NCBI GenBank assembly: GCA_963991985.1
Contig: CAXDRX010000001.1
Location: 3,341-67,340, forward strand
Direction of reading: 5' to 3'
DNA length: 64,000 nucleotides
Source of the DNA: an uncultured bacterium
GTDB taxonomy: Bacteria > Bacteroidota > Bacteroidia > NS11-12g > UBA9320
Every line of letters begins with the position of its first letter. Position 1 is the stretch's first letter. Below the pieces are notes generated by a model. It had not been told where the DNA came from and did not search any database. It saw only the letters and a program-made list of their open reading frames with translations. A program made the translations under genes and the position numbers. This document shows, one piece after another, positions 15,988 to 31,121 of this stretch.

Positions 15988-16010
15988 CTTATGGTTTTTT
16001 TTACCATAAG
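15988..16010. promoter_or_regulatory. Candidate NrtR-family operator upstream of susC
   Basis: Perfect inverted repeat CTTATGGT-TTTTTTT-ACCATAAG (GT-N7-AC core), 4 nt upstream of the -7 box TATATTTG (16015-16022). Confidence 0.75.
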
Positions 16011-16041
16011 AGTGTATATTTGATTTTTATTCATTTAACAA

Positions 16042-19000
16042 ATGCGTCATTTTATTTTAACCATCTCCGCGTTTTTGTTCTCCATCTCCCAAAGTTTTGC
16101 TCAAAATGCAATTCAAATTAGTGGACACATTACCGATAGCAAAAATCAACCTATAGTAGGAGTAGCCGTCTTTGAAGCCGTCTCCGGTTCTGGAGCCTTC
16201 TCAGACGAAGATGGAAACTATCTCATCACCTTGAACTCTTTTAAAGATTCTGCACAACTACGTTTTGAAATGGAAAATTTCCAAACCGAAAAAAGGGTAG
16301 TTTTTGGCGCCTCTGTTTTGAATATTGTTATGTCTGAAGACGTAAATAAACTCAATGAAGTGCTTGTTGTGGGCTACGGGAGCTCATCAAAAAAAGAGCT
16401 AACAGGAGCAACCACGCAAGTTGGAAAGGAAAATATAGAAAAATTAAATATCCCCAGATTAGATCAAGCATTACAAGGTCAGGTTGCAGGGGTGAATATT
16501 GGAACCAACTCTGGATCTCCGGGGGGCACGGCGAGCATCAGAATTCGCGGATTATCAACCTTCGGAGACAACGACCCTTTGATCGTTGTCGATGGAGTCA
16601 TCTATGATTCCGAAGGTCTCAATTCATTGAATCCAAACGATATAGAATCGGTCAACATCCTCAAGGATGCAACAGCAGGGATATATGGGGTAAGAGCAGC
16701 AAATGGTGTAATTTTGATTGAAACCAAAAAAGGAAAAAGGAATACAAAACCACAAATATCTATCAGTAGTTATTTCGGTTCACAACAACCTGTAAAAAAA
16801 CTTGATTTACTGAATGCAACTGAATATGCCGTTATCAAAAACGAAATGCTGGGAACAGGAGGAAACCCTCTTCCTTTTCCCAATGCTCAACTTGGTGAAG
16901 GAACCGATTGGCAAAATGCCGTTTTTTCCAACGCATCAATCCAAAACCACAACATAAGCATTCAAGGAGGTTCTGAAAAATCAACCTACTCAATTGGTGG
17001 AAGTTATTTTTTGCAAAATGGAATTGTTGGCAATGAAAAGGCCAACTTTGAAAGACTCAATGGACGAGTAAACTATACCACAAAACTCTCGGACAAACTA
17101 AAATTAAATTCCATATTTTTATATACCAAAGAAACCAGAAATGCATTGCCTGAAAATGGCATTGGCTCCGTTTTGTATAATACCATAAACGCTTTTCCAA
17201 CTTCACCTATCAAAACAATAGATGGAAGGTATAGCTACCTGACTGAAGTGAATGATATCATCAACCCCATAGCGCAAATGGAAAACACCTACAATACATC
17301 TTGGGTCAATAAGTTTGTGGGTAAGGAAGAAATTGCGTACAGCATCAATGAGAACTTAACATTCACCAATCGGTTAAACTATAATGTGGCACTGGTGGAC
17401 AATAAGGCATTCTCTCCATTGGCGTGGTATGGGCCTGGTAAATATGCCAACAATGCTTCAAATGAGAACTTAGACCCTGTACAAGTTGAAATTGCCGATG
17501 GTGTATTCATTGACAGAGGTGCGAGCGTAACTGAGTCAAGAACAACATATACGGATCTCAACTATGAAGGTTTCTTGAACCATAAAAAAACAATTGCACA
17601 AAACCAAACACTGAAAAGTACTTTGGGTTGGTCAATTTTCAAACGTCGAGGAGAAAATCTAGAAGGAACTGCATTCAATATCCCAAACAATTCAAAAGAT
17701 TACGCAGACATTTCTGCCAACTTAGCGCCGGGCGGTTTTTTGAATAGTGTGAGCTCCTACGAGTTTGAAGAAAGATTGGTCTCAACCTTTCTTAGAACAG
17801 AATACAATCGGGACGATAGATACTTATTGTCTGGTATTCTTCGGAGAGATGGGTCATCAAAGTTTGGTCCCAACAATCGATTTGGTTTTTTCCCTACTCT
17901 TTCGGCAGGATGGTTACTCTCAGAAGAACCTTTCTTCAAGAGTGACATCATCTCGTTTGCCAAACTTAGAGCAAGTTTCGGGGTGAGTGGAAACGACCAA
18001 ATAGAAAATTTTGCCTATCGAGCTCAGCTAAATGGTGAAGGTGTCTATGTTTTTGATGACATCATCACCATAGGAACTGCCATTGGTAGAGCCTCCAATC
18101 CAGACTTAAAGTGGGAAACTACAAGACAATTTAATGTAGGAACTGATTTTATTTTATTCAACAGAATCAATACAACAGTAAATTATTTCATTAAAAATAC
18201 TTACGATTTACTATTTCAGCCCGATGTGTCTGGAATTATTGGGTCATATGGTCCTGGGGGCTACCCTCCTATCATCAATGCAGGAAATGTTAGCAACAAA
18301 GGAATTGAATTAGAAATCAGGTACAACTCAAGCACAAAAAGAGCTTTGAAATTAAATGCTGCTTACAACATCACTTATCTCAAAAATGAAGTAATGGAAA
18401 CACCAACGGGAGTAGATTTTCTTCCAGGTGCAAACTTTGGGGTTGGTGGAAATGTAGCAACACGTTTTGAGAAAGGATTTCCAATTGGATATTTCCATGG
18501 ATACCAAACCGATGGAATATTCCAAACCCAAGAAGAAATAGACAATGCTCCAATTTTGCAAGAAGGAGCAAAACCAGGGGATTTTCGCTTTGTAGATCAA
18601 AATGGAGACGGGAAAATAAGTTTCAGTGACGACACAGACAAAACAATGATTGGATCTCCAATCCCTGAAATCACAATGGGTTTCAACTTCAATCTCGTTT
18701 ATAAGGGTTTTGATGTATCAGGGAATCTATATGTAGCTCTAGGACATGAAATTATTAGGAACTATGAAAGGCAACAACCTTACGCCAATCAACTGGCCTA
18801 CGTATTGGATAGATGGACAGGACCTAACTCAACCAATGATCAAGCAAGAATAAGTACAGACCTCAACCGAAATGGTGTTTTTTCGGATCATTTTGTTGAA
18901 AGTGGAAATTTTGCTCGGCTAAGAAATCTCCAATTTGGATACACCTTGCCAACGAAGTTTACATCCAAAATTTCCATCCAAAGTATGAGAATTTATTTTT

Positions 19001-19143
19001 CGGCAAATAACTTATTTACCCTTACTAATTACATGGGCTACGATCCAGATGTAAGCTCAGGGTCGGCGCTCGATGTTGGAGTAGACAATGGCTTTTATCC
19101 ACAAGCCAAAACATTCATGGGAGGAATTTCAATTAGACTATAA
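16042..19143 (+). CDS. susC: SusC-like TonB-dependent transporter
   Basis: EVLVVGYG, ALQGQVAGV, IRIRG, PLIVVDG, LNPNDIESVNILKDA..IYGVRAANGVILIETKKG, NPDLKWETT, YPQAKT C-terminus. Confidence 0.96.
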   Translation: MRHFILTISAFLFSISQSFAQNAIQISGHITDSKNQPIVGVAVFEAVSGSGAFSDEDGNYLITLNSFKDSAQLRFEMENFQTEKRVVFGASVLNIVMSEDVNKLNEVLVVGYGSSSKKELTGATTQVGKENIEKLNIPRLDQALQGQVAGVNIGTNSGSPGGTASIRIRGLSTFGDNDPLIVVDGVIYDSEGLNSLNPNDIESVNILKDATAGIYGVRAANGVILIETKKGKRNTKPQISISSYFGSQQPVKKLDLLNATEYAVIKNEMLGTGGNPLPFPNAQLGEGTDWQNAVFSNASIQNHNISIQGGSEKSTYSIGGSYFLQNGIVGNEKANFERLNGRVNYTTKLSDKLKLNSIFLYTKETRNALPENGIGSVLYNTINAFPTSPIKTIDGRYSYLTEVNDIINPIAQMENTYNTSWVNKFVGKEEIAYSINENLTFTNRLNYNVALVDNKAFSPLAWYGPGKYANNASNENLDPVQVEIADGVFIDRGASVTESRTTYTDLNYEGFLNHKKTIAQNQTLKSTLGWSIFKRRGENLEGTAFNIPNNSKDYADISANLAPGGFLNSVSSYEFEERLVSTFLRTEYNRDDRYLLSGILRRDGSSKFGPNNRFGFFPTLSAGWLLSEEPFFKSDIISFAKLRASFGVSGNDQIENFAYRAQLNGEGVYVFDDIITIGTAIGRASNPDLKWETTRQFNVGTDFILFNRINTTVNYFIKNTYDLLFQPDVSGIIGSYGPGGYPPIINAGNVSNKGIELEIRYNSSTKRALKLNAAYNITYLKNEVMETPTGVDFLPGANFGVGGNVATRFEKGFPIGYFHGYQTDGIFQTQEEIDNAPILQEGAKPGDFRFVDQNGDGKISFSDDTDKTMIGSPIPEITMGFNFNLVYKGFDVSGNLYVALGHEIIRNYERQQPYANQLAYVLDRWTGPNSTNDQARISTDLNRNGVFSDHFVESGNFARLRNLQFGYTLPTKFTSKISIQSMRIYFSANNLFTLTNYMGYDPDVSSGSALDVGVDNGFYPQAKTFMGGISIRL

Positions 19144-19145
19144 AA

Positions 19146-20612
19146 ATGAAAAAACAATTAATCATCATCGCAACATGCTTATTGATCACTGCTTGCAGTG
19201 ATTTCCTAGAGGTAAACCCACCGTACACGCAAGATGCAGAAAACTATTTCGAAAGACCCGAAGACTATGAAAGAGCTCTTATTGGAGCATACGACCTTTT
19301 ACAAGGTTCTTTTCTTAATATTTGGATTGGAGAAATTGCCTCAGACAATGCAATAGCTGGAGGAGAAAGTGTTACAGACACCGAAGGATTACATGAAATA
19401 GAAAATATGACTCACGATGCAGTAAACAACGAGTTGCGAAGTATTTGGCGATGGAACTATGCTGGTCTCACACGAGCCAATTACATCTTAGAGTTTAAAG
19501 ATAAAATTGATTTTGAAGGCAAAGATCAAATCATCGCAGAATGTAAATTTCTGCGCGCATACTATTATTTCCAACTGGTAAAATTCTTTGGTGACGTTCC
19601 CTTAATTTTAAACAAAAGATTAGGAGCCCAAGAAGCAAAAGAAATCGACAGAACACCAAAAGACCAAGTCTATGCTCAAATAGAAAATGACCTAAGAGAT
19701 GCATCCGCTACCTTGCCATCAACCCAAATAGTAAAAGGAAAAATCACCAAAGGAGCAGCATTAAGTTTGCTAGGGAAAGTTCTACTTTATCAAAACAAAT
19801 TTGAGCAAGCTGCCAGCACCCTAGACACAGTGATTCAAAGCAATCTTTACACGCTTATCAATGATTATGATAAAATTTTCTCAGTGGCCAACGAAGGCCA
19901 TAGTGAAACTGTTTTTGACATTGAATATTCTGGATTGGAAGGAGGAAGTTACGAATGCCTGATATGTCTTGAGGGCAATGCAGCCCCTGGTTTTCAAGGA
20001 ATTAGACAATACAAAGGTCCCGTATATGGAGACGGAAACAGCTACAACCTACCAACCAAAGAGCTTTATGATTATTTTGAGGCAACCGACCTTCGAAGAG
20101 ATGCCACGATCCTAAACCTCGACGAATTTATATCCAAGCAAAGCAACCCAGAACAAATTGAATACGCAAAAGGCGCTGGTGGACATACTGGCTTTTACAA
20201 CAACAAATACATCAAAAAACAAGGAGAAATTGGACTACCCGATAACGATCTCACAAGCCCTGTGAACTTTAAGGTAATTCGATATGCAGATGTATTGCTA
20301 ATGGCTGCCGAAGCACACAACCGAAAATCTAGTCCGGATGATGCACGAGCACTTGAATATTTAAATACCGTTCGAAAGCGAGTCGGCATGGCAGACAAAT
20401 CAAGCAATGGCTCCGATTTGACTCAAGACATTTGGAATGAAAGAAGATTAGAGCTATCGGGAGAAGGTCTTCGATTTTTTGACCTCGTGAGGACAGGACA
20501 AGCTGAAATCGAAATGGATAATTTTATACCAGGCAAACACGAATTATTTCCCATTCCTCAGGTAGAAATTGACCTTGCAGGTGGAAATTGGCAACAAAAT
20601 CCAAACTATTAA
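19146..20612 (+). CDS. susD: SusD/RagB-like glycan-binding lipoprotein
   Basis: ITAC lipobox, FLRAYYYFQLVKFFGDVP, IRYADVLLMAAEA, ERRLELSGEGLRFFDLVR, FPIPQVEI, QNPNY. Confidence 0.96.
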   Translation: MKKQLIIIATCLLITACSDFLEVNPPYTQDAENYFERPEDYERALIGAYDLLQGSFLNIWIGEIASDNAIAGGESVTDTEGLHEIENMTHDAVNNELRSIWRWNYAGLTRANYILEFKDKIDFEGKDQIIAECKFLRAYYYFQLVKFFGDVPLILNKRLGAQEAKEIDRTPKDQVYAQIENDLRDASATLPSTQIVKGKITKGAALSLLGKVLLYQNKFEQAASTLDTVIQSNLYTLINDYDKIFSVANEGHSETVFDIEYSGLEGGSYECLICLEGNAAPGFQGIRQYKGPVYGDGNSYNLPTKELYDYFEATDLRRDATILNLDEFISKQSNPEQIEYAKGAGGHTGFYNNKYIKKQGEIGLPDNDLTSPVNFKVIRYADVLLMAAEAHNRKSSPDDARALEYLNTVRKRVGMADKSSNGSDLTQDIWNERRLELSGEGLRFFDLVRTGQAEIEMDNFIPGKHELFPIPQVEIDLAGGNWQQNPNY

Positions 20613-20617
20613 TAATT

Positions 20618-21478
20618 ATGAAAGCAATACAATTCAACTTATCAGCTATTCTCATTACACTTATTGTAATCAGTTGTAATGATGAAAGACCTTCGCTGGG
20701 AACAGCTCCCACGCTTGAAGACGCAACCTTTACTTACAACTACAACGATAGCAACCAAAACATAGTGGAATTCCAAGCTGGTGAAGCCAATTATCAATAT
20801 GTATGGAATTTTGGTAATGGTCGAACCTCGTCTCAAAAAATAGCCAGTAGCTTGTACCCAAACAAAGGAGATTATGAGGTATCCCTTACCGTATTTGGTC
20901 CTGGTGGTAGTGCCAATACCAAACAAATCATCAACATCCAAAACGATGATTTATCGTTATTGAGCGATTCAATCTATTTCTACCTTACAGGTGGAAGTGA
21001 AAAGACCTGGATGATTGATTCAACCAGAGACGGTCATTTTGGTGTAGGACCAAACCCCGTTGACCCCAGCCTAGGCTATACGCCTCATTGGTGGGCAGCA
21101 GGCCCCAACGACAAAAGTGGTTGCAATTTATACGACGATCGATTTACCTTCAGATTCAATGGATTTGAGTTTGACCAAGTAACCAATGGGTTTACTTATG
21201 CTCACGGTGATTTTCATGAAACCTTCCCTTCGTCACAACAGGTAAAAAATGATTATACCGTGCCATTTGCCAATCAACTTGGAGAATCGTGGACAATAGA
21301 CAAGGAGTCAGACACGACAATCAGTATTTCCGGAGATGCATTCATTGGTTTTTACACGGGTAAAGGTAAAAATACTTATAAAGTACTAAAAATTAGTAAT
21401 GATGAGTTGTATATACGACACCTTCATGAAGGAAATGAAGATTTGTCATGGTACCAATGGTTGGTTCCGGTAAAATAA
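20618..21478 (+). CDS. PKD-domain lipoprotein with Trp-rich putative beta-glucan-binding module (SGBP-like)
   Basis: VISC lipobox; PKD (YVWNFGNG...YPNKGDYEVSLTV); C-terminal GHFGVGP..WW..C..YDD..F module; sits right after susD. Confidence 0.75.
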   Translation: MKAIQFNLSAILITLIVISCNDERPSLGTAPTLEDATFTYNYNDSNQNIVEFQAGEANYQYVWNFGNGRTSSQKIASSLYPNKGDYEVSLTVFGPGGSANTKQIINIQNDDLSLLSDSIYFYLTGGSEKTWMIDSTRDGHFGVGPNPVDPSLGYTPHWWAAGPNDKSGCNLYDDRFTFRFNGFEFDQVTNGFTYAHGDFHETFPSSQQVKNDYTVPFANQLGESWTIDKESDTTISISGDAFIGFYTGKGKNTYKVLKISNDELYIRHLHEGNEDLSWYQWLVPVK

Positions 21479-21486
21479 AGAGCTTA

Positions 21487-22590
21487 GTGTATAAAAGTTT
21501 TCAGAACATCTTGCTTTGGGTGTCGGTATCCCTTCTTTTTTCTTATTGCAATGACGATGAATCTCCCTCTGGGAATGATGTTGTTTTGCCCTCAAAATTT
21601 GAAGTTGAGTTGTCCATAATAGATACTGCAGCAGGTCGCATCGAAATAGCTTGTAGTGCAGATGGAGCCAACTACTTTTCAATGTTAGTAGAAGGTACCA
21701 ATTACAGTAGCAACAAAAATTCTAAAGATGGAAAATTTGAATTTGACATTTCACCTAGTGGAATTTATGTACTATCGGCAAAAGCACATGTAACAGAAAA
21801 TCATTTTGTTGAAAAAAAATGGAACCTAAATTACGACCTAATCATTAGTCAACAAGATTTTGACATAGGATACAAATCACCCAATTCATACAATGGCTAC
21901 AACCTTATTTGGCAAGATGAATTTGAAGGAAACAGCATAGACGAAACACGTTGGAATTTTGAAACAGGATTCGCCCAAAACCAAGAATTACAATTTTATA
22001 GAAAAGAAAATGCAAGCATTCAAAATGGTTACTTAGATATTGTTGGAAATGGGAATGGAGGCAATTACACGTCAGCTCGTCTAAATACAAGCACAAAGTT
22101 TTCTTTCCAATTTGGCCGTATAGATGTAAGAGCAAAAATTCCAACTTCCAAGGGCATGTGGCCGGCCATTTGGCTTTTGGGACAAAGTTATGACCAAATT
22201 GATTGGCCGAGATGCGGTGAAATTGACATTATGGAATATTGGGGAAATCCAAATGGAGCGGTACATGGCACGATTCACTGGCACAACGAAAACAATGGCA
22301 AGCGCGGCGATACAGGAGGATACAAAATCGTGGACGACAAGGATGAATTGTCTTCGAAATTTCATGTATATTCTATCGTGTGGGACCAAAACCGCATCGT
22401 ATGGTATCTAGACAATAAACAATTTTTGGTGAGGGAAATATCCGCACAAGAAATGTCAGAATTAAGAGAAGATTTTTTTGTGATCTTAAACCTTGCCATT
22501 GGCGGCACAAACCCCGGCAATCCAGATGAAACCAGTATTTTTCCAAGCCATATGTATGTGGACTATGTAAGAGTATTTCAGAAATTATAA
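21487..22590 (+). CDS. GH16 endo-beta-1,3-glucanase-like lipoprotein (copy 1)
   Basis: LIWQDEF, YTSARL, GMWPAIW, WPRCGEIDIME catalytic motif, FHVYSIVW, VDYVRVFQ. GTG 21487 preferred because it avoids overlap with the previous gene. Confidence 0.9.
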   Translation: MYKSFQNILLWVSVSLLFSYCNDDESPSGNDVVLPSKFEVELSIIDTAAGRIEIACSADGANYFSMLVEGTNYSSNKNSKDGKFEFDISPSGIYVLSAKAHVTENHFVEKKWNLNYDLIISQQDFDIGYKSPNSYNGYNLIWQDEFEGNSIDETRWNFETGFAQNQELQFYRKENASIQNGYLDIVGNGNGGNYTSARLNTSTKFSFQFGRIDVRAKIPTSKGMWPAIWLLGQSYDQIDWPRCGEIDIMEYWGNPNGAVHGTIHWHNENNGKRGDTGGYKIVDDKDELSSKFHVYSIVWDQNRIVWYLDNKQFLVREISAQEMSELREDFFVILNLAIGGTNPGNPDETSIFPSHMYVDYVRVFQKL

Positions 22591-22601
22591 ATTTGATTTC
22601 C

Positions 22602-23756
22602 ATGCGTATTCAACTGTCAAACAATAAATACTTATTTCATTGGGCTACTGTGCTTGCTTTTTTTTCTATGTTGGCCAGCTGTAAAACAAATGGCAACCAA
22701 AGTTTTACCTTGCAAAGACCAAATAATCTCCAAACAAAATTAATTGTGGTAGATTCAATACTGGGATTGGTAAAAGTAGAAGCTTTTGCAGAAAATGCCA
22801 ACCAATACACTGTCGATGTTCACGGGCCGGATGGTTTTGTATCTAAGGCCTCAAAAAATGAAGGCCTGTTTGATTTCGAATTAATCCCAGAAGGAACTTA
22901 TCATTTTAACATCAAAGCTGTGGCCATGGAAAACGCCTTTGTAGAAGAAAATAAATCCATCACATTCGTAAAACCCGACCCTTTACTCGAGTATGACAAA
23001 GGCTACAAAAGCCCAAAATCATATGACGGATATAGACTGGTATGGGAAGATGAATTTAATCGACAGGAACTAGATGAAAAATCATGGACCTTTCAATTGG
23101 GAACTGGTCGGGAGTATGGTTTGTACGGTTGGGGGAACAATGAGTTGCAATTTTACCGCAGTGAAAACACAATACTTGAAAACGGCTATTTAAAAATCTT
23201 AGCCAAAAAAGAAGATTTTAGTGGTCAAGAATATACTTCTTCAAGGATTTATACCATTGGAAAAAAAGCTTTTCAATATGGACGATTTGATATTCGAGCC
23301 AAGTTGCCTGTTTCACAAGGCATGTGGCCTGCCATTTGGATGTTGGGTGAGAACATCAATGATATTGGATGGCCAAAATGTGGAGAAATAGATATCATGG
23401 AAATAGTCGGCAAACAACCACGACATTTATTGGGAACCTTGCATTGGCACAATGATATTGAAAACCAAAAAGTTCAATCCGGTGGAGAAATATGGCTTGG
23501 ACACGATGCGCCAGGTTTTGATGAAGAATTTCATGTATTTTCAATTGTTTGGAATAGTACAGAAATCATATGGTATCTAGACAACCAACCTTATGCAAGC
23601 ATAGACATAAGACCCAGCCATATGAGTGAATTCCATAAACCATTTCACTTTTTATTTAATGTGGCCATTGGAGGCAATTGGCCAGGAAGCCCAGATCAAA
23701 GCACAATATTCCCTAGTGAAATGGCAATCGATTACATCCGTGTTTTTCAGAAATAG
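22602..23756 (+). CDS. GH16 laminarinase-like lipoprotein (copy 2)
   Basis: LASC lipobox, GWGNNELQFY, GMWPAIW, WPKCGEIDIME, GGNWPG, IDYIRVFQ. Confidence 0.92.
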   Translation: MRIQLSNNKYLFHWATVLAFFSMLASCKTNGNQSFTLQRPNNLQTKLIVVDSILGLVKVEAFAENANQYTVDVHGPDGFVSKASKNEGLFDFELIPEGTYHFNIKAVAMENAFVEENKSITFVKPDPLLEYDKGYKSPKSYDGYRLVWEDEFNRQELDEKSWTFQLGTGREYGLYGWGNNELQFYRSENTILENGYLKILAKKEDFSGQEYTSSRIYTIGKKAFQYGRFDIRAKLPVSQGMWPAIWMLGENINDIGWPKCGEIDIMEIVGKQPRHLLGTLHWHNDIENQKVQSGGEIWLGHDAPGFDEEFHVFSIVWNSTEIIWYLDNQPYASIDIRPSHMSEFHKPFHFLFNVAIGGNWPGSPDQSTIFPSEMAIDYIRVFQK

Positions 23757-23827
23757 CTGATGTTTCTGACCTAAAAAATAAAGTTATTTTTTTTGTTTTA
23801 CTTTTGTGAAAACAAACTCCTTAAACA

Positions 23828-24496
23828 ATGAAATTTTCATTCAAAATCATCCTTATTATCTTACTTCTAGGCAATTTTCATTATTCTTTTGGTCAAGGCG
23901 CTGAATTGCCAAGAAAAAGACAATATAGACCGCTCAACCAAAAACAACAAGAGATCCGAATTGGCGCACTCAAATCCCTTTTGATACCGATGTACGAAAT
24001 CGAATACGAAAAAGATTTCACTGACAACACATCCTATGGTGGAACCTTGTTGATCAATGGCAACATTAGTTCAAGGGTTATACGTCTTAATTTGATGGCA
24101 ACACCTTATTTTAGGTTTTATTTCAACAAATCAAAGGAATACGGTATTCAAGGACTTTTTGCACAAGGATATTTGGGGTATTACAATGTAGACCGTGACA
24201 ATGGGAAGTATATTGCTGATTCTTCACAAAATCCTTACCCTTGGGCCAACTTCGTCTCCAATTGGGAATCCATTCACAACCTTGGATATGGTTTTGGTTT
24301 GGGGAAAAAGTGGACACAAAACTCTGGATTTACCCTAACAATATTTGCAGGATTTTCGAGAACTGCACGAGGTTTTGGTTCACCTGAATTGTGGCGCACC
24401 TGGGACGACATCAATGGAAACCCTCGACAACCAAAAGAATCTGACTATCGAAATGTTTTGTTCAATGCCGACATTCATTTGGGCTTCAGGTTTTAA
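23828..24496 (+). CDS. Small outer-membrane beta-barrel protein (DUF3575-like)
   Basis: Signal peptide, TPYFRFYF..GLFAQG, GFGLGKKW, terminal LGFRF beta-signal. Confidence 0.6.
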   Translation: MKFSFKIILIILLLGNFHYSFGQGAELPRKRQYRPLNQKQQEIRIGALKSLLIPMYEIEYEKDFTDNTSYGGTLLINGNISSRVIRLNLMATPYFRFYFNKSKEYGIQGLFAQGYLGYYNVDRDNGKYIADSSQNPYPWANFVSNWESIHNLGYGFGLGKKWTQNSGFTLTIFAGFSRTARGFGSPELWRTWDDINGNPRQPKESDYRNVLFNADIHLGFRF

Positions 24497-24498
24497 TT

Positions 24499-26703
24499 TT
24501 ACTGAACCACTATTTTCTTGGACCAATCGCCTACGTGTAAGATAAATTCCCCTTCTTCTACTTCTTTTTGTAAGTTTTTATTCACAAAAGCCAGTGATGA
24601 CACGGGTATATTGAATTGATATGTAACTTTTTCCCCTGCCCCTATTTCTTTTTTGTCAAAATCTCTCAATCTTTTCACCGAAGGTGCAACAGATGCCACA
24701 ACATCACTTACAAAGACCAACTCTGTTTTTAAAGCATCACAATTGCTATTATTGGTTACTTCATAGGTTATCAAAATACTGTCCTCTTTTTGGAATGTGT
24801 CTCTAGCAACATTAAAGTTCTTATAGGTAAAACTGCTATAAGACAAACCATGGCCAAATTCATATTGTGGATCAAAAGCACCAAGTCCAAAATCTACATT
24901 GAGTTGATCGGTATATTTATGGTCATAAGGCAAAAGACTCGCGCTAAATTTTGGGTACGTTATGGGAAGTAAACCGCTTGGGTTTGTTTTTCCAAAAAGG
25001 ATTTTTGCCACTGCATTTGTTCCATTTTCAGAAATCAAATAACTCATTAAAATTGCTGAGCAATAGGGTTCTATTTCTCTGATAATGATGGGTCTATTTG
25101 TACTCAATACCAAAACAATAGGCTTTTGGTATTTTGCCAATTCTTTCACCTCTTTTACCCATTCTTTAGGCGCCTCTAAAGAGTGAATATCTCCCGGTTT
25201 TTCTGTACTAGGCTTTTCTCCATAAAACAATACAATAGCATCCACGTTTTTGGCCTCTGTTGTTTTATTTAACTTTCTAGCCCGCAAATTTTGCGCTACA
25301 ACAGCCTTCCAAAAGGTATTTTTGGTGTTATCATCCCATTGGCTATCAACACCTTGCCAAGTCCTAGACCAAGCACCATTAACCATAGTAAGCTTGTCTA
25401 GGGCATTGCCCATGACCCCAATGTTGGCATTGGATGAGATGGGCAATGTATTGTTTTCATTTTTTAATAATGTAACTGCTTCTTCCGCTACCACCTCTGC
25501 CGTTTTAGAAAAGCTATCTGAAGCAACCAAAGGGTAACTTTCCTTTTGAAACCAAAGCGGATGCTCAAAAAGTCCCAGCTTTTTTTTCATTGTTAAAATC
25601 CTTCGTACCGCCTCATCAATTCTATCCATCGGTACTTCCCCTTCTTCAACCAGCTCCAAAAGCAAATCAGAGAAATGATAATCATTGGGAACCATACTCA
25701 TATCAATTCCAGAATTGATGGCAAGTTTCACTGCCTCTTTCAAATCTTTTGCTACATGATGAAAATCCACCAGCTTGATGATGTCTTCCCAATCCGTTAC
25801 AGCAACACCTTGAAAACCCAATTCATTTCTCAACAAACCTGTTAGAATTTCCTTGTCGGCATGAACAGGTATACCATTCAAATCACCAGAATTGATCATC
25901 ACACTTAGTGCACCTTCTTCAATTGCTTTTTCAAAGCTCGGTAAGAAAATTTCTCTTAGCTGAATCGGATGAATATACACCGATGTTCTGTCCTTCCCAG
26001 TGAAAGGAAAACTATAACCTAAAAAATGTTTCATGCAAGCAGAAACGTGATAATTGTCGATTTTTGTTGAATTTCCTTGATATCCTTTGATCACGGATAC
26101 ACCCATTTGAGTAGCCAAATAGCTATCCTCTCCATAAGTTTCAAAAACCCTACTCCATAGGGGTTGTCTAGCAATATCTAAAACAGGAGAGAAATTCCAA
26201 GGCACACCCATAGCTCTTGTTTCATAGGCCGTTATTTCTGCTCCTTTTTGAATCAATCTAGGATTAAAAGTAGCCGCTTGAGCTAGGGGTTGAGGGAATA
26301 AGGTCCCCTCCATCAAATAGTTGGCACCATGAATAGCATCAATGCCATAAAGCACGGGTATTTTTAATTTTGTTTTTTGAACCTCATCATGAATATTCTT
26401 CATAATTCGGTGCCAAGTACTTAACGTATGTGCATGAGAATTTCCTGCATTTAGTATAGACCCAACTCCATAGTCTCTGATGGCTTTTGCAAGTTTCAAT
26501 GAGTCTACGGCAAGTGGTTCTTGAAGATTATACAAAACTCCTTTGCAGATGAGGTCAATGTTCAATTGAGTCATTTGCCCAATCTTCTCTTTGGTGGTCA
26601 TCTGAGACATTAACAAATCAATAGTATCCGGGCTTTTGTCTGTCTTTGTACAAGAAGTAAAAACCAAACTCAGCAGCAGAGATCCAAAAAATATTTTCTT
26701 CAT
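24499..26703 (-). CDS. GH3 beta-glucosidase (lipoprotein)
   Basis: EKIGQMTQ, YGIDAIHG, WNFSPVLD, ETYGED, CMKHF, VTDWED nucleophile, FGHGLSY, FnIII tail; FTSC lipobox. Confidence 0.94.
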   Translation of the reverse strand: MKKIFFGSLLLSLVFTSCTKTDKSPDTIDLLMSQMTTKEKIGQMTQLNIDLICKGVLYNLQEPLAVDSLKLAKAIRDYGVGSILNAGNSHAHTLSTWHRIMKNIHDEVQKTKLKIPVLYGIDAIHGANYLMEGTLFPQPLAQAATFNPRLIQKGAEITAYETRAMGVPWNFSPVLDIARQPLWSRVFETYGEDSYLATQMGVSVIKGYQGNSTKIDNYHVSACMKHFLGYSFPFTGKDRTSVYIHPIQLREIFLPSFEKAIEEGALSVMINSGDLNGIPVHADKEILTGLLRNELGFQGVAVTDWEDIIKLVDFHHVAKDLKEAVKLAINSGIDMSMVPNDYHFSDLLLELVEEGEVPMDRIDEAVRRILTMKKKLGLFEHPLWFQKESYPLVASDSFSKTAEVVAEEAVTLLKNENNTLPISSNANIGVMGNALDKLTMVNGAWSRTWQGVDSQWDDNTKNTFWKAVVAQNLRARKLNKTTEAKNVDAIVLFYGEKPSTEKPGDIHSLEAPKEWVKEVKELAKYQKPIVLVLSTNRPIIIREIEPYCSAILMSYLISENGTNAVAKILFGKTNPSGLLPITYPKFSASLLPYDHKYTDQLNVDFGLGAFDPQYEFGHGLSYSSFTYKNFNVARDTFQKEDSILITYEVTNNSNCDALKTELVFVSDVVASVAPSVKRLRDFDKKEIGAGEKVTYQFNIPVSSLAFVNKNLQKEVEEGEFILHVGDWSKKIVVQ

Positions 26704-26704
26704 A

Positions 26705-28333
26705 TTAAGCAAATAAAATCCACAATAAAATTACTCCCGCAACAACCAGAGAGGAAAGCGTAAGATTCAACATGTTATTTTTCCAAATAAAGTTTCCTCT
26801 TGAATAGGTAATCTTAGTAATATCTTTCTTTTCTAAATCTTTGGCACGTGAAAAGAAAATAAGAATAGCAGAACATGTGAGAAAAAGTAAAAAAGCAAAA
26901 TGCAAGAAATTAATGCTAGCAAATTGATACAAAAAACCTGAAAGATTTTCTTTTACCAATTCCAAACCCAATCGGGCAGTTCCTATGGCAGCTCCTGTTA
27001 AAAGGGAAATTTTGGCTGCCCGGCCAGTAATTTTTTTATTGAATATCCCGATCAAAAAAACAGCAGCAATAGGTGGTGATATATAGGCCTGAATACTTTG
27101 AAGTTTTTGGAACAATCCACCTTCAATGAGGTTCATCAGAGGGATCCAAGCAAGACCCAAAACGACCAAAAAAGCGGTAGATTTTTGACCAAATCTAACC
27201 AAAGATTTATCGTCTGCCTCTGGTTTCCACTTCTTGTACAAATCCATTGTAATTAATGTTGAGCATGAATTAAAAACGGAAGAAAGAGAACTCATCAAAG
27301 CCGCCAGGAGACCTGCAATGACCAAACCTTTTAAACCCGCTGGTAGCAGTTGCATCGTTAGTGTGGGCAAGGCAGCATCGTAATTTATCGAACCATTTTC
27401 AATGGGGAATTGGATTCTTGGATTTGGCCCAGTACTTAGTACAAAAGCAATGACACCAGGAATGACAAACAAAAACAAAGGCAATAATTTCAGGAATGCA
27501 CCGAAAATGGTTCCTTTCCTACCTTCATTTATGTTTTTTGCAGAGAGGACTCTTTGCACGATGAATTGATCCGTGCACCAGTACCAAACACCCAAAATAG
27601 GAGCGCCCAATACAACGCCAGTCCAAGGGAAAGAAGTATCTCCTGAACCCCGCCACAAACTGAGATAACTTGGATCTGATTTTTCCATTAAAACATTCCA
27701 TCCTCCTAGTTCCTGTAATCCATAAATAGTAATGGCAATGGAACCACCCAATAAAACTAGCATTTGGAGGAAATCTGTATAAACCACTACTTTCAAACCA
27801 CCCAAAACGGTATAAATCCCAGTGATGAGAACGATCAGTATTGCCCCCGTCCAAAAGTCTATGCCCAATAAAGCAGTGAACACAATCCCCCCAGCAGCAA
27901 TGGTTACTGAAATTTTTGTGAGCACATAGGCAATAACCGAAACCCAAGTTAGATATGATCTTGCCCAAGCATTGTATCTTCTTTCCAAAAACTCGGGCAT
28001 GGTATAAACTCCACTACGCATATAAAAGGGAACAAATACCCAACCCAAAAGAAGCAAAATGAGAGATGCCAAAATTTCAAATTGAGCAGCAGGAAAATCT
28101 CCTTTGGCCCCAGCACCTGCAAGACCAATCAAATGTTCAGATCCTATATTTGATGCGAACAATGAAGCCCCAATGGCCCACCACGCCAAATTTTTACCAC
28201 CTAAAAAATAGTCATCCGACAAACCCTCTTTGGAGCGACTACGTTTTAAAAAAAAGAATAAGGCTATGCCAAAAACAGCAAGAAAGTAAAACGCAATAAC
28301 CCCTAGGTCTAAGTTGTTCAGTTGTTCAAACAT
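26705..28333 (-). CDS. Sodium:solute symporter (SGLT-like sugar transporter)
   Basis: YFLGG, SLFASNIGSEHLIGLAG, TMPEFLERRY, WYWCTDQFIVQRVL, AALMSSLSSVFNS. Confidence 0.92.
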   Translation of the reverse strand: MFEQLNNLDLGVIAFYFLAVFGIALFFFLKRSRSKEGLSDDYFLGGKNLAWWAIGASLFASNIGSEHLIGLAGAGAKGDFPAAQFEILASLILLLLGWVFVPFYMRSGVYTMPEFLERRYNAWARSYLTWVSVIAYVLTKISVTIAAGGIVFTALLGIDFWTGAILIVLITGIYTVLGGLKVVVYTDFLQMLVLLGGSIAITIYGLQELGGWNVLMEKSDPSYLSLWRGSGDTSFPWTGVVLGAPILGVWYWCTDQFIVQRVLSAKNINEGRKGTIFGAFLKLLPLFLFVIPGVIAFVLSTGPNPRIQFPIENGSINYDAALPTLTMQLLPAGLKGLVIAGLLAALMSSLSSVFNSCSTLITMDLYKKWKPEADDKSLVRFGQKSTAFLVVLGLAWIPLMNLIEGGLFQKLQSIQAYISPPIAAVFLIGIFNKKITGRAAKISLLTGAAIGTARLGLELVKENLSGFLYQFASINFLHFAFLLFLTCSAILIFFSRAKDLEKKDITKITYSRGNFIWKNNMLNLTLSSLVVAGVILLWILFA

Positions 28334-28335
28334 TA

Positions 28336-29079
28336 TTAAAATTCAAATTGGAATCCTCTATTTTTTTGGTTTTTGTATTTGCTTTTATTGAACGAATACA
28401 ATTTGGCTGGACGATGCGATACATTGGTTTGCCATTCTTCTAAATCATCGAGAATATTCATGGACAAAATTTTCTTCCTAAAATTTGGCTTATCGTAAAT
28501 GGTTCCAAAAATGGCTTCAAACGTTCTTTGTAGCTCTAGCAATGTAAATTTTTTAGGAAGTAATTCAAAACCAATGGATTCCCTTTTTGCCTTTTTTCTT
28601 AGTCTTTCTAAACCTTTTTCTATAATCAATCGATGATCGAAAGCCAGTTCAGGAAGTTCTTGAATGTCCCACCATTTAGTATTTCTTGCCCATGCGGCAG
28701 GCAAAGGATTGAAATTTTCTGACTTTACCAAAGAAAAGAACCCTACGGTCAAAACACGGCCCAGAGGATGACGATTTACTCCACCGAAAGTTCTAAACTG
28801 TTTAAAAAATATTTTTTTTAACCCGGTCAATTGAAATAAAATTCTTGCCGCTGCATCTTTAAGATTTTCATCTATTTTCATTAAATCACCTGGCAGGGCC
28901 CAGTAACCCTCAAATGGAGACACTCCCCTTTCGACAAGCAAAACACGAAGAGAACCTGATTGATAACCAAGAACAATACAATCTACTGAAATACCAAAAC
29001 AAAAAGATGCTGATTGAGCATTGCTGGGATGAATCGATTCTGAATAATCAAACTTTGAGCCAGATTTGTCTTCAAACAT
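28336..29079 (-). CDS. NrtR-family transcriptional regulator (degenerate Nudix sensor plus winged HTH)
   Basis: SVDCIVLG, WALPG, degenerate Nudix box (DAAARILFQLTGL), LAFDH, FTLLELQ..E...DKPNFRKK, HRPAKLY. Confidence 0.9.
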   Translation of the reverse strand: MFEDKSGSKFDYSESIHPSNAQSASFCFGISVDCIVLGYQSGSLRVLLVERGVSPFEGYWALPGDLMKIDENLKDAAARILFQLTGLKKIFFKQFRTFGGVNRHPLGRVLTVGFFSLVKSENFNPLPAAWARNTKWWDIQELPELAFDHRLIIEKGLERLRKKAKRESIGFELLPKKFTLLELQRTFEAIFGTIYDKPNFRKKILSMNILDDLEEWQTNVSHRPAKLYSFNKSKYKNQKNRGFQFEF

Positions 29080-29109
29080 TGATAAGACAAATAAACACTT
29101 TTTTTTGAT

Positions 29110-29132
29110 GTTATGGTAAAAATTACCTTATC
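29110..29132. promoter_or_regulatory. Candidate NrtR-family operator 2 (regulator-symporter-GH3 promoter)
   Basis: GTTATGGT-AAAAATT-ACCTTATC with GT-N7-AC core; upstream of the minus-strand TTTATTTG box (29095-29088). Confidence 0.7.
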
Positions 29133-29143
29133 CATATTTTTTA

Positions 29144-29166
29144 GTTATAGTATTTTTTACTTTAAC
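29144..29166. promoter_or_regulatory. Candidate NrtR-family operator 3 (promoter of the T9SS-secreted protein)
   Basis: GTTATAGT-ATTTTTT-ACTTTAAC with GT-N7-AC core; upstream of TACGTTTG (29177-29184). Confidence 0.68.
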
Positions 29167-29206
29167 AATTTTTCATTACGTTTGGATTAACTAAATATAA
29201 AAACAA

Positions 29207-31069: not shown

Positions 31070-31089
31070 ATTTATAGTTTTTACAAATG

Positions 31090-31121
31090 AAAAGGGAAGT
31101 CGTAATGGCTTCCCTTTTTTT
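31090..31121 (+). terminator. Rho-independent terminator closing the PUL
   Basis: AAAAGGGAAGTC-GTAAT-GGCTTCCC followed by T7, 20 nt after the stop at 31069. Confidence 0.85.

What the first reader, a model, noticed from the sequence alone, without database searches (positions are those of the whole stretch)
15988..29166. Beta-glucan PUL apparently controlled by an NrtR-family sugar-sensing repressor through three visible operators
Seen: three palindromes share TTATrGT-N7(A/T only)-ACywTAw: 15988-16010 (perfect), 29110-29132 and 29144-29166. Each lies 4-14 nt upstream of the -7 box of one PUL transcription unit (susC-susD-PKD-GH16-GH16; regulator-symporter-GH3; T9SS protein). The regulator's Nudix box has lost its catalytic glutamates (RILFQL instead of RExxEE) and is fused to a wHTH. 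Established: NrtR-family sites are ~21-bp palindromes with a GT-N7-AC core; sugar-sensing members in Bacteroides (AraR, XylR) control pentose catabolism; PULs are typically regulated by HTCS, SusR or ECF sigma factors. Inference: an autoregulated repressor relieved by glucose or laminari-oligosaccharide, which would be a new effector class and a regulon readable from sequence.
Basis: partly seen in the sequence, partly recalled or inferred. Interest (0 to 1): 0.78.

Follow-up and report, generated by a model that had tools for sequence, protein, structure and literature searches.

The report
Nudix-type repressor operators of laminarin locus
Three matching DNA palindromes are very probably the docking sites of a sugar-sensing Nudix-type repressor that switches an algal beta-glucan (laminarin) feeding locus on and off in a small marine flavobacterium, extending a known regulator type to a new sugar.

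Summary
Three 21-bp palindromes (15989-16009, 29111-29131, 29145-29165) are the only matches to the shared pattern in the window and in the whole 1.82-Mb genome. Each lies 5-15 nt upstream of a TAnnTTTG-type -7 box.

The adjacent 247-aa protein is a full-length relative of the Bacteroides arabinose repressor AraR. It keeps AraR's sugar-binding Arg/Arg/His triad and has lost all three catalytic Nudix glutamates.

Conservation is strong:
- 18 of 18 same-family orthologues carry the site upstream of the regulator gene.
- All 11 orthologous susC promoters carry it, ending 31-37 nt before the ATG, in otherwise unconserved DNA.
- The DNA-contact residues change together with the half-site, in a second family and in an alpha-glucan paralogue.

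The third unit encodes a secreted protein whose repeated module folds like a laminaritriose-binding protein. No BguR- or HTCS-type regulator was found in this genome.

The effector is untested; I infer glucose. Verdict: a well-supported new member of the NrtR/AraR regulator kind. This scan has already noted the same type on other genomes.

The parts
15989..16009 (.). Operator O1 (TTATGGT-T7-ACCATAA), perfect palindrome on the susC promoter
   Evidence: kept at the same place in 10 other orthologous susC promoters
16015..16022 (+). -7 box TATATTTG of the susC operon promoter
   Evidence: TATATTTG/TATATTCG follows the site in the orthologous promoters; consensus TAnnTTTG from PMC7641319
16042..19143 (+). 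SusC-type TonB-dependent transporter
   Evidence: TIGR04056 772 bits; Plug and barrel domains
19146..20612 (+). SusD-type glycan-binding lipoprotein
   Evidence: PF07980, PF14322
20588..21478 (+). PKD-domain protein (probable surface glycan-binding protein)
   Evidence: PF00801; function inferred
21448..22590 (+). GH16 glucanase 1
   Evidence: PF00722
22593..23756 (+). GH16 glucanase 2 (40% identical to the first by cross-hits in a relative)
   Evidence: PF00722; cross-hits
23828..24496 (+). Unknown 222-aa secreted protein, last gene of the susC unit
   Evidence: no Pfam or NCBIfam hit; signal-peptide-like N-terminus; kept in the same-genus genome
24499..26712 (-). GH3 beta-glucosidase with lipoprotein-type signal (MKKIFF...LVFTSC)
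   Evidence: PF00933/PF01915/PF14310; sequence; localisation inferred by eye
26705..28333 (-). Sodium:solute symporter (probable glucose importer)
   Evidence: PF00474, TIGR00813; substrate inferred
28336..29079 (-). NrtR/AraR-family regulator (degenerate Nudix domain + winged helix), first gene of regulator-symporter-GH3 operon
   Evidence: PF21906, PF19368, PF00293; BtAraR 5bs6 E 1.4e-48; model best matches AraR, E 3e-24
29088..29095 (-). Imperfect -7 box (TTTATTTG on the minus strand) of the regulator operon
29111..29131 (.). Operator O2, 32-52 nt upstream of the regulator start: autoregulation site
   Evidence: equivalent site in 18 of 18 same-family orthologues
29145..29165 (.). Operator O3 on the promoter of the T9SS protein gene; centre 34 bp from O2
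   Evidence: same pair of sites in the same-genus genome
29177..29184 (+). -7 box TACGTTTG of the T9SS protein gene
29207..31069 (+). Secreted (T9SS tail) protein with two ~155-aa lipocalin-like modules; probable beta-glucan-binding protein
   Evidence: PF18962 only; module model pLDDT 95.2, best fold match B. fluxus SGBP-B with laminaritriose; module fused to GH16/GH5/CBMs elsewhere
31089..31119 (+). Terminator-like hairpin (14 pairs, T tail) closing the single-gene T9SS unit

Best explanation
The 247-aa protein at 28336-29079 is a cytoplasmic repressor of the NrtR/AraR (Nudix-related) family. By analogy with AraR it probably acts as a homodimer; I did not test this. It binds the three 21-bp palindromes. 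Each palindrome lies between or over the -33 and -7 promoter elements, so the bound protein would block RNA polymerase at three promoters:
- susC-susD-PKD-GH16-GH16-unknown;
- its own operon, regulator-symporter-GH3;
- a single gene for a secreted glucan-binding protein.

In this model, basal expression lets laminarin be cut outside the cell and in the periplasm, with GH3 acting as a lipoprotein. The symporter imports the product. The sugar binds the catalytically dead Nudix domain, the winged helices move apart as in AraR, and the repressor leaves the DNA.

The most likely effector is D-glucose, at about even odds on its own. A glucose-containing disaccharide comes next.

Shown here: family membership, the operators' uniqueness and position, their conservation, and their co-variation with the DNA-contact residues. 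Inferred: binding, repression, dimerisation and the effector.
For: (1) Family. Pfam NrtR_WHD, AraR_C and NUDIX all hit. BtAraR aligns over the full length at E 1.4e-48, against 1.4e-24 for Shewanella NrtR. The AF2 model (pLDDT 81.8) best matches AraR chains at E 3e-24, TM 0.72.

(2) Dead enzyme, kept sugar site. REUXEE reads RILFQL. AraR's arabinose H-bond triad R34/R86/H131 aligns with R51/R103/H149. These are 97-100% conserved in 29 orthologues (triad named in PMC4666351).

(3) Sites. They are genome-unique, have the GT-N7-AC core (PMC2330246), and lie 5-15 nt from -7 boxes.

(4) Conservation upstream of the regulator. 18 of 18 same-family orthologues (53-72% identity) have the site 25-91 nt upstream of the gene.

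(5) Conservation at susC. 11 of 11 same-family susC promoters (own plus 10 from 9 genomes) carry a site scoring 14.5-24.1. It ends 31-37 nt before the ATG and is followed by TATATT(T/C)G, while the flanks are not alike. The next-best score in each 430-nt window is 8.5 or less. Only one of these susC sites was in the matrix's training set.

(6) Co-occurrence. All 14 other genomes with a susC orthologue also have the regulator orthologue.

(7) Co-variation of protein and DNA.
- Same-family orthologues have DKPNFRKK..HR and the half-site TTAWRGT.
- All 11 second-family orthologues have D(V/T)RNFRKK; 7 of them carry TTATTGTA-N5-TACAATAT.
- Alpha-glucan paralogues have DKRNFRRK..HK, and 14 of 17 carry TTAGTGT-N7-ACAC.

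(8) Coherent regulon. The secreted protein's module folds like a laminaritriose-binding SGBP-B.

(9) No alternative PUL regulator. No Y_Y_Y or GerE domain scores over its cut-off, and the only AraC-type HTH lies in a 289-aa frame.
Against: - No binding, expression or effector experiment exists. The RNA data are contigs only and cannot show regulation.
- In the second family, 4 of 11 regulator loci show no recognisable site.
- Also in the second family, only 2 of 5 susC orthologues show a clear site; one is partial.
- The regulator's -7 box is imperfect.
- O1 is also flagged as a weak terminator-like hairpin 10 nt after the upstream gene.
- AraR's DNA-intercalating Arg180 is Pro here, so DNA recognition differs in detail from the solved complex.
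- The pocket positions mapped from AraR are identical in the beta- and alpha-glucan paralogues. The effector cannot be read from them. If both sense glucose, the two regulons would be co-induced.
Confidence: 0.78

Rival explanations
1. Same repressor and operators, but the effector is a laminarin-specific oligosaccharide such as laminaribiose taken up intact, not glucose.
For: It would give substrate specificity, which a glucose signal lacks given the alpha-glucan paralogue in the same genome. Two positions outside the mapped pocket differ consistently between the beta and alpha groups: 107 G/A and 130 W/F. They might touch a second sugar.
Against: GH3 carries a lipoprotein-type signal, so glucose is released before import (read by eye). 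The locus has no cytoplasmic beta-glucosidase or phosphorylase. The transporters linked to the regulator are a sodium:solute symporter and, in relatives, a Sugar_tr-family MFS, both typical monosaccharide carriers (general knowledge). The AraR-equivalent pocket positions are the same in alpha- and beta-glucan regulators.
Confidence: 0.2
2. The protein is an activator, or a dual regulator, rather than a repressor.
For: The only experimentally studied laminarin regulator of marine Bacteroidota, BguR, is an activator (preprint 10.64898/2026.01.10.698779, section 4 read). This genome shows no other PUL activator.
Against: The sites abut or overlap the core promoter, 5-15 nt from the -7 box and ending 31-41 nt before the start codons. 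That is a repressor position. The characterised relatives AraR and NrtR lose DNA binding when the ligand is bound (PMC4666351 abstract and passages; PMC2330246 abstract).
Confidence: 0.07
3. The protein is a classical NrtR that responds to ADP-ribose, and its position beside the PUL is incidental.
For: The best NCBIfam hit is the ADPR-responsive NrtR model, but at 126.8 bits against a cut-off of 400.
Against: It is much closer to AraR than to Shewanella NrtR in sequence and in fold. No site was found at NAD genes: the top genome-wide hits are the three PUL sites, one site before an unknown lipoprotein gene, and sites inside coding frames. Linkage to beta-glucan genes is conserved across genera.
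Confidence: 0.03
4. The palindromes are not this protein's sites. They are transcription terminators or sites of another factor.
For: O1 passes a loose terminator scan: 8-bp stem with 3 GC pairs, and no T tract after it.
Against: Three sites share the same arm sequence, not just hairpin potential. O2 and O3 lie between divergent starts where nothing terminates. The site keeps its distance to the susC ATG in genomes with different upstream DNA. The half-site changes together with the regulator's DNA-contact residues.
Confidence: 0.03

Closest known systems
BtAraR (BT0354), L-arabinose-responsive NrtR-family repressor of Bacteroides thetaiotaomicron (PDB 5bs6, 5dd4, 5ddg, 5deq; PMC4666351)
   Same: Same two-domain architecture and fold. 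Degenerate Nudix box. Conserved Arg/Arg/His sugar triad, plus F129 and V92 equivalents. 21-bp semipalindromic operators, sometimes in tandem. The regulator sits in an operon with the sugar's inner-membrane transporter. It controls SusC/SusD units (section 11 of the paper).
   Different: 35-37% identity only. The hydrophobic wall around arabinose C4/C5 (Y5, F36, G48, F49) is replaced by Q/F, V/A, D and L. The intercalating Arg180 is Pro. The half-site differs. The regulon is a beta-glucan PUL rather than pentose catabolism. Here no HTCS shares the control, whereas AraR-regulated PULs in B. thetaiotaomicron also have HTCS activators.
NrtR of Shewanella oneidensis / Synechocystis (ADP-ribose-responsive regulators of NAD metabolism; PDB 3gz5, 3gz6; PMC2330246)
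   Same: Founding members of the family. Nudix domain plus winged helix. 21-bp palindrome with a GT-N7-AC core.
   Different: More distant (E 1.4e-24). Their effector is ADP-ribose and their targets are NAD genes. None of the top-scoring sites here lies at NAD genes.
BguR, membrane-spanning one-component activator of laminarin PULs in marine Bacteroidota (bioRxiv 10.64898/2026.01.10.698779)
   Same: Same biological task: switching a laminarin PUL of a marine flavobacterium.
   Different: Unrelated protein: a periplasmic beta-propeller/Y_Y_Y sensor with a GerE domain, an activator that senses outside the cytoplasm. No such protein was found in this genome. None lies next to the orthologous susC in the 5 relatives checked.
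AusR, GntR-family repressor of the alginate system of Zobellia galactanivorans (PMC7641319)
   Same: A cytoplasmic repressor of a marine flavobacterial PUL, with operators at or near the -7 box and autoregulation (passages).
   Different: Different protein family, operator and substrate.
The alpha-glucan paralogue in the same genome (G000 contig 2; L006:10756-11532)
   Same: 46% identical. Same pocket positions. Same operator layout, upstream of its own gene.
   Different: Linked to MFS, beta-phosphoglucomutase-like HAD, GH65 and GH13 genes. Half-site TTAGTGT. DNA-contact residues R198, R202 and K223.

Membership tests
NrtR family (Nudix-related transcriptional regulators) | N-terminal Nudix-fold domain fused to a C-terminal winged-helix DNA-binding domain | tested here: met
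   PF00293 30-153 and PF21906 170-230; model matches AraR and NrtR chains over about 220-230 columns
NrtR family (Nudix-related transcriptional regulators) | Impaired Nudix signature GX5EX7REUXEEXGU | tested here: met
   R79-ILFQLTGL: all three glutamates of REUXEE replaced. None of the 28 orthologues with this region aligned shows an intact REUXEE; one further orthologue lacked the region in the extracted frame. Signature as quoted in PMC4666351
NrtR family (Nudix-related transcriptional regulators) | 21-bp palindromic operator with GT-N7-AC core near the regulator gene | tested here: met
   core as stated in PMC2330246
NrtR family (Nudix-related transcriptional regulators) | Ligand binding to the Nudix domain releases the protein from DNA | not testable with these tools
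   needs EMSA, ITC or a crystal structure
NrtR family (Nudix-related transcriptional regulators) | Homodimer | not tested
   palindromic sites imply it; no complex prediction was run
Sugar-responsive AraR/XylR branch of Bacteroidota | Sugar-hydroxyl H-bond triad (AraR R34, R86, H131) | tested here: met
   R51, R103, H149 by alignment to 5bs6; 97-100% conserved in 29 orthologues
Sugar-responsive AraR/XylR branch of Bacteroidota | Chromosomal clustering with the catabolic and transport genes of the sensed sugar, with sites before them | tested here: met
AraR orthologue (arabinose specificity) | Hydrophobic pocket residues Y5, F36, G47-G48-F49 and DNA contacts K179-R180-N181, K204-R205 conserved | tested here: not met
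   Q22, V53, G-D-L, K-P-N, H-R. A third paralogue type in relatives keeps G-G-F and F/Y at the F36 position. So this protein is not an AraR orthologue
BguR-controlled laminarin PUL | Y_Y_Y + GerE membrane regulator encoded next to susC | tested here: not met
   no Y_Y_Y or GerE over the cut-off in the genome. The genes upstream of susC are a bacterial PH-domain protein and HtpG
HTCS-controlled PUL | Hybrid two-component regulator (Y_Y_Y sensor, kinase, receiver, AraC HTH) | tested here: not met
   no Y_Y_Y over the cut-off; the single HTH_18 match lies in a 289-aa frame
SusR- or ECF-sigma/anti-sigma-controlled PUL | SusR-like or ECF/anti-sigma genes beside the PUL | tested here: not met
   none among the 16 proteins scanned from 11977 to 34530; not searched genome-wide

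The most novel reading that the evidence does not exclude
In genome-streamlined planktonic flavobacteria, a complete SusC/SusD polysaccharide utilisation locus and a secreted glucan-binding protein are governed solely by a cytoplasmic repressor that senses the end-product glucose. No periplasmic oligosaccharide sensor (BguR, HTCS, SusR) is involved. A paralogue with the same sugar pocket but a different operator runs the alpha-glucan genes. The two major algal storage glucans would then be handled by a two-paralogue Nudix-regulator switchboard. This would be a second, BguR-independent logic of laminarin sensing in the ocean.
Probability: 0.35. Interest if true: 0.65.

Novelty: new member of a known kind. 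Interest (0 to 1): 0.5.

Why it matters
[quoted passage not shown] How its utilisation loci are switched is only starting to be studied: one 2020 paper stated that PUL regulatory pathways were unknown in marine Bacteroidetes (PMC7641319).

The only regulator tested so far is the membrane activator BguR. The evidence here points to a different, cytoplasmic route in small-genome flavobacteria:
- The operator can be read directly from sequence.
- A regulator match at E 1e-55 or better (some may be paralogues of other specificity) occurs in 53 of 300 other genomes sampled across the class, 39 of 166 other genera.
- Databases name these proteins only 'NUDIX hydrolase' or '8-oxo-dGTP diphosphatase'. 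Re-annotating them as regulators and scanning for their operators would define beta-glucan and alpha-glucan regulons in uncultured bloom-associated bacteria.

The secreted two-module protein also flags an unclassified glycan-binding module with 752 relatives.

Tried and rejected
- The search for related loci with the regulator in genome contigs found no relative. I used the genome search instead.
- Fourth candidate site, G000 contig 23 position 3028, score 20.1. It lies 77 nt before an unknown 385-aa lipoprotein gene followed by a TonB-dependent receptor. It is weakened in the same-genus genome (13.5) and absent upstream of the homologue in 18 other genomes. I do not count it as a conserved regulon member.
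- Two further high scores (contig 6 at 18.1, contig 4 at 15.7) lie inside long open frames and I take them as chance.
- The protein atlas gave only 'hypothetical protein with Por tail' clusters for the secreted protein. A sequence search of the PDB matched only its sorting tail. Relaxed Pfam gave nothing usable.
- The sigma-70 promoter scan is not suited to Bacteroidota and found fewer sites than shuffles.
- RNA evidence. Four metatranscriptome runs of one study hold contigs at 95% identity or more over parts of all three units. These are contigs, so they show neither level, starts nor regulation. No listed contig bridges the 29059-29209 intergenic region. In three runs contigs start at 29210-29217 next to adapter letters. 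I draw no conclusion from either point.
- Literature. No paper combined NrtR with laminarin as a regulator, Nudix with laminarin and PUL, or NrtR with Flavobacteria and polysaccharide utilisation beyond the AusR and Ravcheev papers. The Maribacter laminarin paper has no occurrence of regulator, Nudix, repressor, ADP-ribose or symporter.
- Not visible to me: figure 1A (the family tree) and the supplements of PMC4666351, and the supplements of the BguR preprint. They may show or name a glucan-linked branch.
- I did not try to read the effector from the model, because no tool here docks glucose.

Full report
**Observation**

The three palindromes are in the sequence as described:
- 15988-16010 is a perfect 8+7+8 palindrome, CTTATGGT-T7-ACCATAAG.
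- 29110-29132 has two arm mismatches.
- 29144-29166 has one arm mismatch.

That is 5 strand matches against 0.03 expected, and 0 of 100 shuffles reached 5. Only these three match in the whole genome of 1,823,487 bases in 57 contigs, estimated complete; the reversed control pattern hit once.

That pattern was derived from the sites, so I also built a symmetrised weight matrix from 15 sites of other genomes only. It ranks the window's sites 1st, 2nd and 4th genome-wide, with scores 25.9, 20.9 and 19.8.

**Genes**

Pfam and NCBIfam give three transcription units.
- Plus strand: SusC (16042-19143), SusD, a PKD-domain protein, two GH16 enzymes and an unknown 222-aa protein with a signal-like N-terminus.
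- Minus strand, convergent, tightly packed or overlapping: the regulator (28336-29079), a sodium:solute symporter and a GH3 enzyme.
- Divergent from the regulator: a 620-aa protein whose only known domain is a T9SS sorting tail, followed by a strong terminator-like hairpin at 31089-31119.

The GH3 N-terminus, MKKIFFGSLLLSLVFTSC, looks like a lipoprotein signal (my reading, no predictor was run). Glucose would then be released outside the cytoplasm and imported by the symporter.

**Promoter geometry**

The flavobacterial -7 box consensus TAnnTTTG is quoted in PMC7641319 (passages). Measured positions:
- O1 ends 5 nt before TATATTTG (16015-16022).
- O3 ends 11 nt before TACGTTTG (29177-29184).
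- O2 lies 15 nt from an imperfect TTTATTTG on the minus strand (29095-29088).

The centres of O2 and O3 are 34 bp apart. Sites in this position would hinder RNA polymerase, which argues for repression.

**The regulator**

It carries NUDIX, NrtR_WHD and AraR_C domains. Against the PDB, BtAraR aligns over residues 20-237 at E 1.4e-48, and Shewanella NrtR at 1.4e-24. An AF2 model (pLDDT 81.8; residues 1-24 disordered) matches AraR chains best (E 3e-24, TM 0.72), then NrtR.

The Nudix signature quoted in PMC4666351 (section 11 read) reads R79-ILFQLTGL here, with all three glutamates gone.

I mapped the residues that the AraR paper names (passages) through the alignment.
- The arabinose H-bond triad R34/R86/H131 is R51/R103/H149.
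- F129 and V92 are kept.
- The hydrophobic residues around arabinose C4/C5 (Y5, F36, G48, F49) are Q22, V53, D65 and L66.
- Among the DNA contacts, the intercalating R180 is P198 and K204 is H222.

The protein is therefore a member of the sugar-sensing branch but not an AraR orthologue.

**Conservation upstream of the regulator**

Among 60 relatives, 38 have a match at E 1e-20 or better. 29 loci from 29 other genomes score 215 bits or more (45-72% identity), and weaker paralogues follow below.

In all 18 same-family orthologous loci, a site with at most 2 mismatches to TTATRGT-N7-ACYATAA lies 25-91 nt upstream of the regulator start. A typical example is TTAAAGTAAAAAGTACTATAA.

In the second family, 7 of 11 loci carry a shifted motif, TTATTGTAyTTTTTACAATAT, at the start region. 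The other 4 show none.

In 20-kb contexts, the regulator is accompanied again and again by the symporter, GH3, GH16, PKD and SusC/D genes. The same-genus genome has all three sites in the same places. In another genus the arrangement is Sugar_tr MFS-GH16, then the site, then regulator-glycosidase-symporter.

**Conservation at susC**

Orthologues of this SusC (62-86% identity) occur in 14 other genomes of the 60. All 14 also have the regulator orthologue.

In the same family, 11 of 11 susC promoters (own plus 10 from 9 genomes) carry a site scoring 14.5-24.1. The next-best score in each 430-nt window is 8.5 or less. Only one of these susC sites had been used to train the matrix.

Lined up on the start codon, the flanks are unalike. 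The site ends 31-37 nt before the ATG and is followed by TATATT(T/C)G. This is a classical phylogenetic footprint.

In the second family, 2 of 5 susC orthologues have ATATTGTTGAAAAAACAATAA, one has a partial site, and two have none or are uncertain.

**Co-variation**

The DNA-contact segment and the half-site change together.

| Group | Contact residues | Half-site | Sites found |
|---|---|---|---|
| Same family (own + 18) | D-K-P-N-F-R-K-K .. H-R (one has Y-R) | TTAWRGT | 18 of 18 orthologous loci, plus own |
| Second family (11) | D-(V/T)-R-N-F-R-K-K | TTATTGT | 7 of 11 |
| Alpha-glucan paralogues (own + 17) | D-K-R-N-F-R-R-K .. H-K | TTAGTGT-N7-ACAC | 14 of 17 |

The strict differences between the beta and alpha groups are positions 198, 202 and 223 (DNA contacts) and positions 107 and 130. 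This ties the palindromes to this protein family rather than to some other factor.

**Effector**

The positions equivalent to AraR's ligand contacts are the same in 29 beta-glucan and 18 alpha-glucan regulators: R, G-D-L, R, V, F, H. Three paralogues of a third type keep AraR's G-G-F and an aromatic residue at the F36 position.

The G-D-L signature thus goes with glucans of either linkage. Taken with the periplasmic GH3 and the monosaccharide-type transporters, I read this as glucose, or a shared glucose moiety, being sensed. This is inference only, and it leaves open how the two regulons are told apart.

**The third unit**

The secreted protein contains two ~155-aa modules.
- The module has 752 relatives at E 0.001 or better, often in several copies per protein.
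- Of 32 long relatives scanned, 3 also carry GH16 and 1 carries GH5. Several carry CBM6/35, CBM4_9, CBM11 or starch-binding modules, and 14 carry the sorting tail.
- Its model (pLDDT 95.2) is most like the surface glycan-binding protein B of Bacteroides fluxus solved with laminaritriose (7kv7, E 1.2e-5, TM 0.64, 16% identity). Lipocalin-like Bacteroides proteins come next.

A beta-glucan-binding role fits the regulon but is not shown.

**Other regulators**

A 2026 preprint (abstract and section 4 read) shows that laminarin PULs of Formosa agariphila need the membrane activator BguR (Y_Y_Y sensor plus GerE). It reports BguR homologues in beta-glucan PULs of the 53 genomes screened.

Here no Y_Y_Y and no GerE match passes its cut-off. 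The only AraC-type HTH lies in a 289-aa frame. In five relatives that carry the susC site, no Y_Y_Y gene lies near susC. The locus type found here therefore follows a different, BguR-independent logic.

**Rivals**

- O1 passes a loose terminator scan. However, it has no T tract, it shares its arm sequence with O2 and O3, and it keeps its distance to susC in genomes with different upstream DNA.
- An ADP-ribose-sensing NrtR is unlikely, given the closer kinship to AraR and the absence of sites at NAD genes among the top hits.
- An activator role is unlikely, given the site positions.

**Novelty**

The family, its operator type and sugar-sensing members that co-regulate PULs are all known (PMC2330246, PMC3878776, PMC4666351). 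A hexose- or glucan-linked member was not found in the literature searches. I could not see figures or supplements.

Public names for these proteins are 'NUDIX hydrolase' or '8-oxo-dGTP diphosphatase'.

This scan has already reported the same regulator type on other genomes, three times for beta-glucan loci and twice for starch loci. I rate this a well-supported new member of a known kind, of moderate interest.

Noticed in passing
G000 contig 2, L006:5798-18080 (regulator at L006:10756-11532, minus strand): A second NrtR/AraR-type paralogue (46% identical). It is followed by an MFS transporter gene and sits divergent from HAD (beta-phosphoglucomutase-like), GH65 and two GH13 genes. A TTAGTGT-AAAAAAT-ACACTAT palindrome lies in the divergent region, and a second copy lies at contig 2 position 5185. 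17 of 20 paralogue loci in relatives show the same gene linkage, and 14 of 17 show the same half-site.
   Followed up: partly
G000 contig 23, L057:3028-3048: A high-scoring copy of the beta-glucan operator (20.1), 77 nt before an unknown 385-aa lipoprotein gene and a 977-aa TonB-dependent receptor gene. It is weakened in the same-genus genome and absent before the homologue in 18 other genomes.
   Followed up: yes
window 29261-29746 and 30320-30805: The two repeats of the secreted protein are an unclassified ~155-aa module with no Pfam family and 752 relatives. It occurs in up to 5 copies per protein, in multimodular T9SS-secreted proteins alongside GH16, GH5 and various CBMs. It is a candidate new carbohydrate-binding module with a lipocalin-like fold.
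   Followed up: partly
window 23828-24496: A 222-aa protein with a signal-like N-terminus and a C-terminal ...GFRF, with no family hit. It closes the susC operon, is kept in the same-genus genome (74% identity), and may be a small outer-membrane protein.
   Followed up: no
L112, L115, L116 (relatives G027, G025, G023): A third type of NrtR-family paralogue that keeps AraR's G-G-F and an aromatic residue at the F36 position. These are probably pentose regulators. Their contexts were not examined.
   Followed up: no
L029 (relative G057), 58 nt upstream of the beta-glucan regulator orthologue: A palindrome of the alpha-glucan type (AAAGTGT-GTAAATT-ACACTTA) sits upstream of the beta-glucan regulator gene. 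It hints at cross-regulation between the two paralogues in that genome.
   Followed up: no
window 24496-24499: The susC operon and the regulator-symporter-GH3 operon converge, with only two bases between their stop codons and no clear terminator between them.
   Followed up: no
G000 contig 18, L100 (about 7147-7245): A 1648-aa open frame with a sub-threshold Y_Y_Y match (18.8 bits). A similar 1658-aa frame exists in relative G008. It is too long and lacks GerE over the cut-off, so it is unlikely to be BguR.
   Followed up: no
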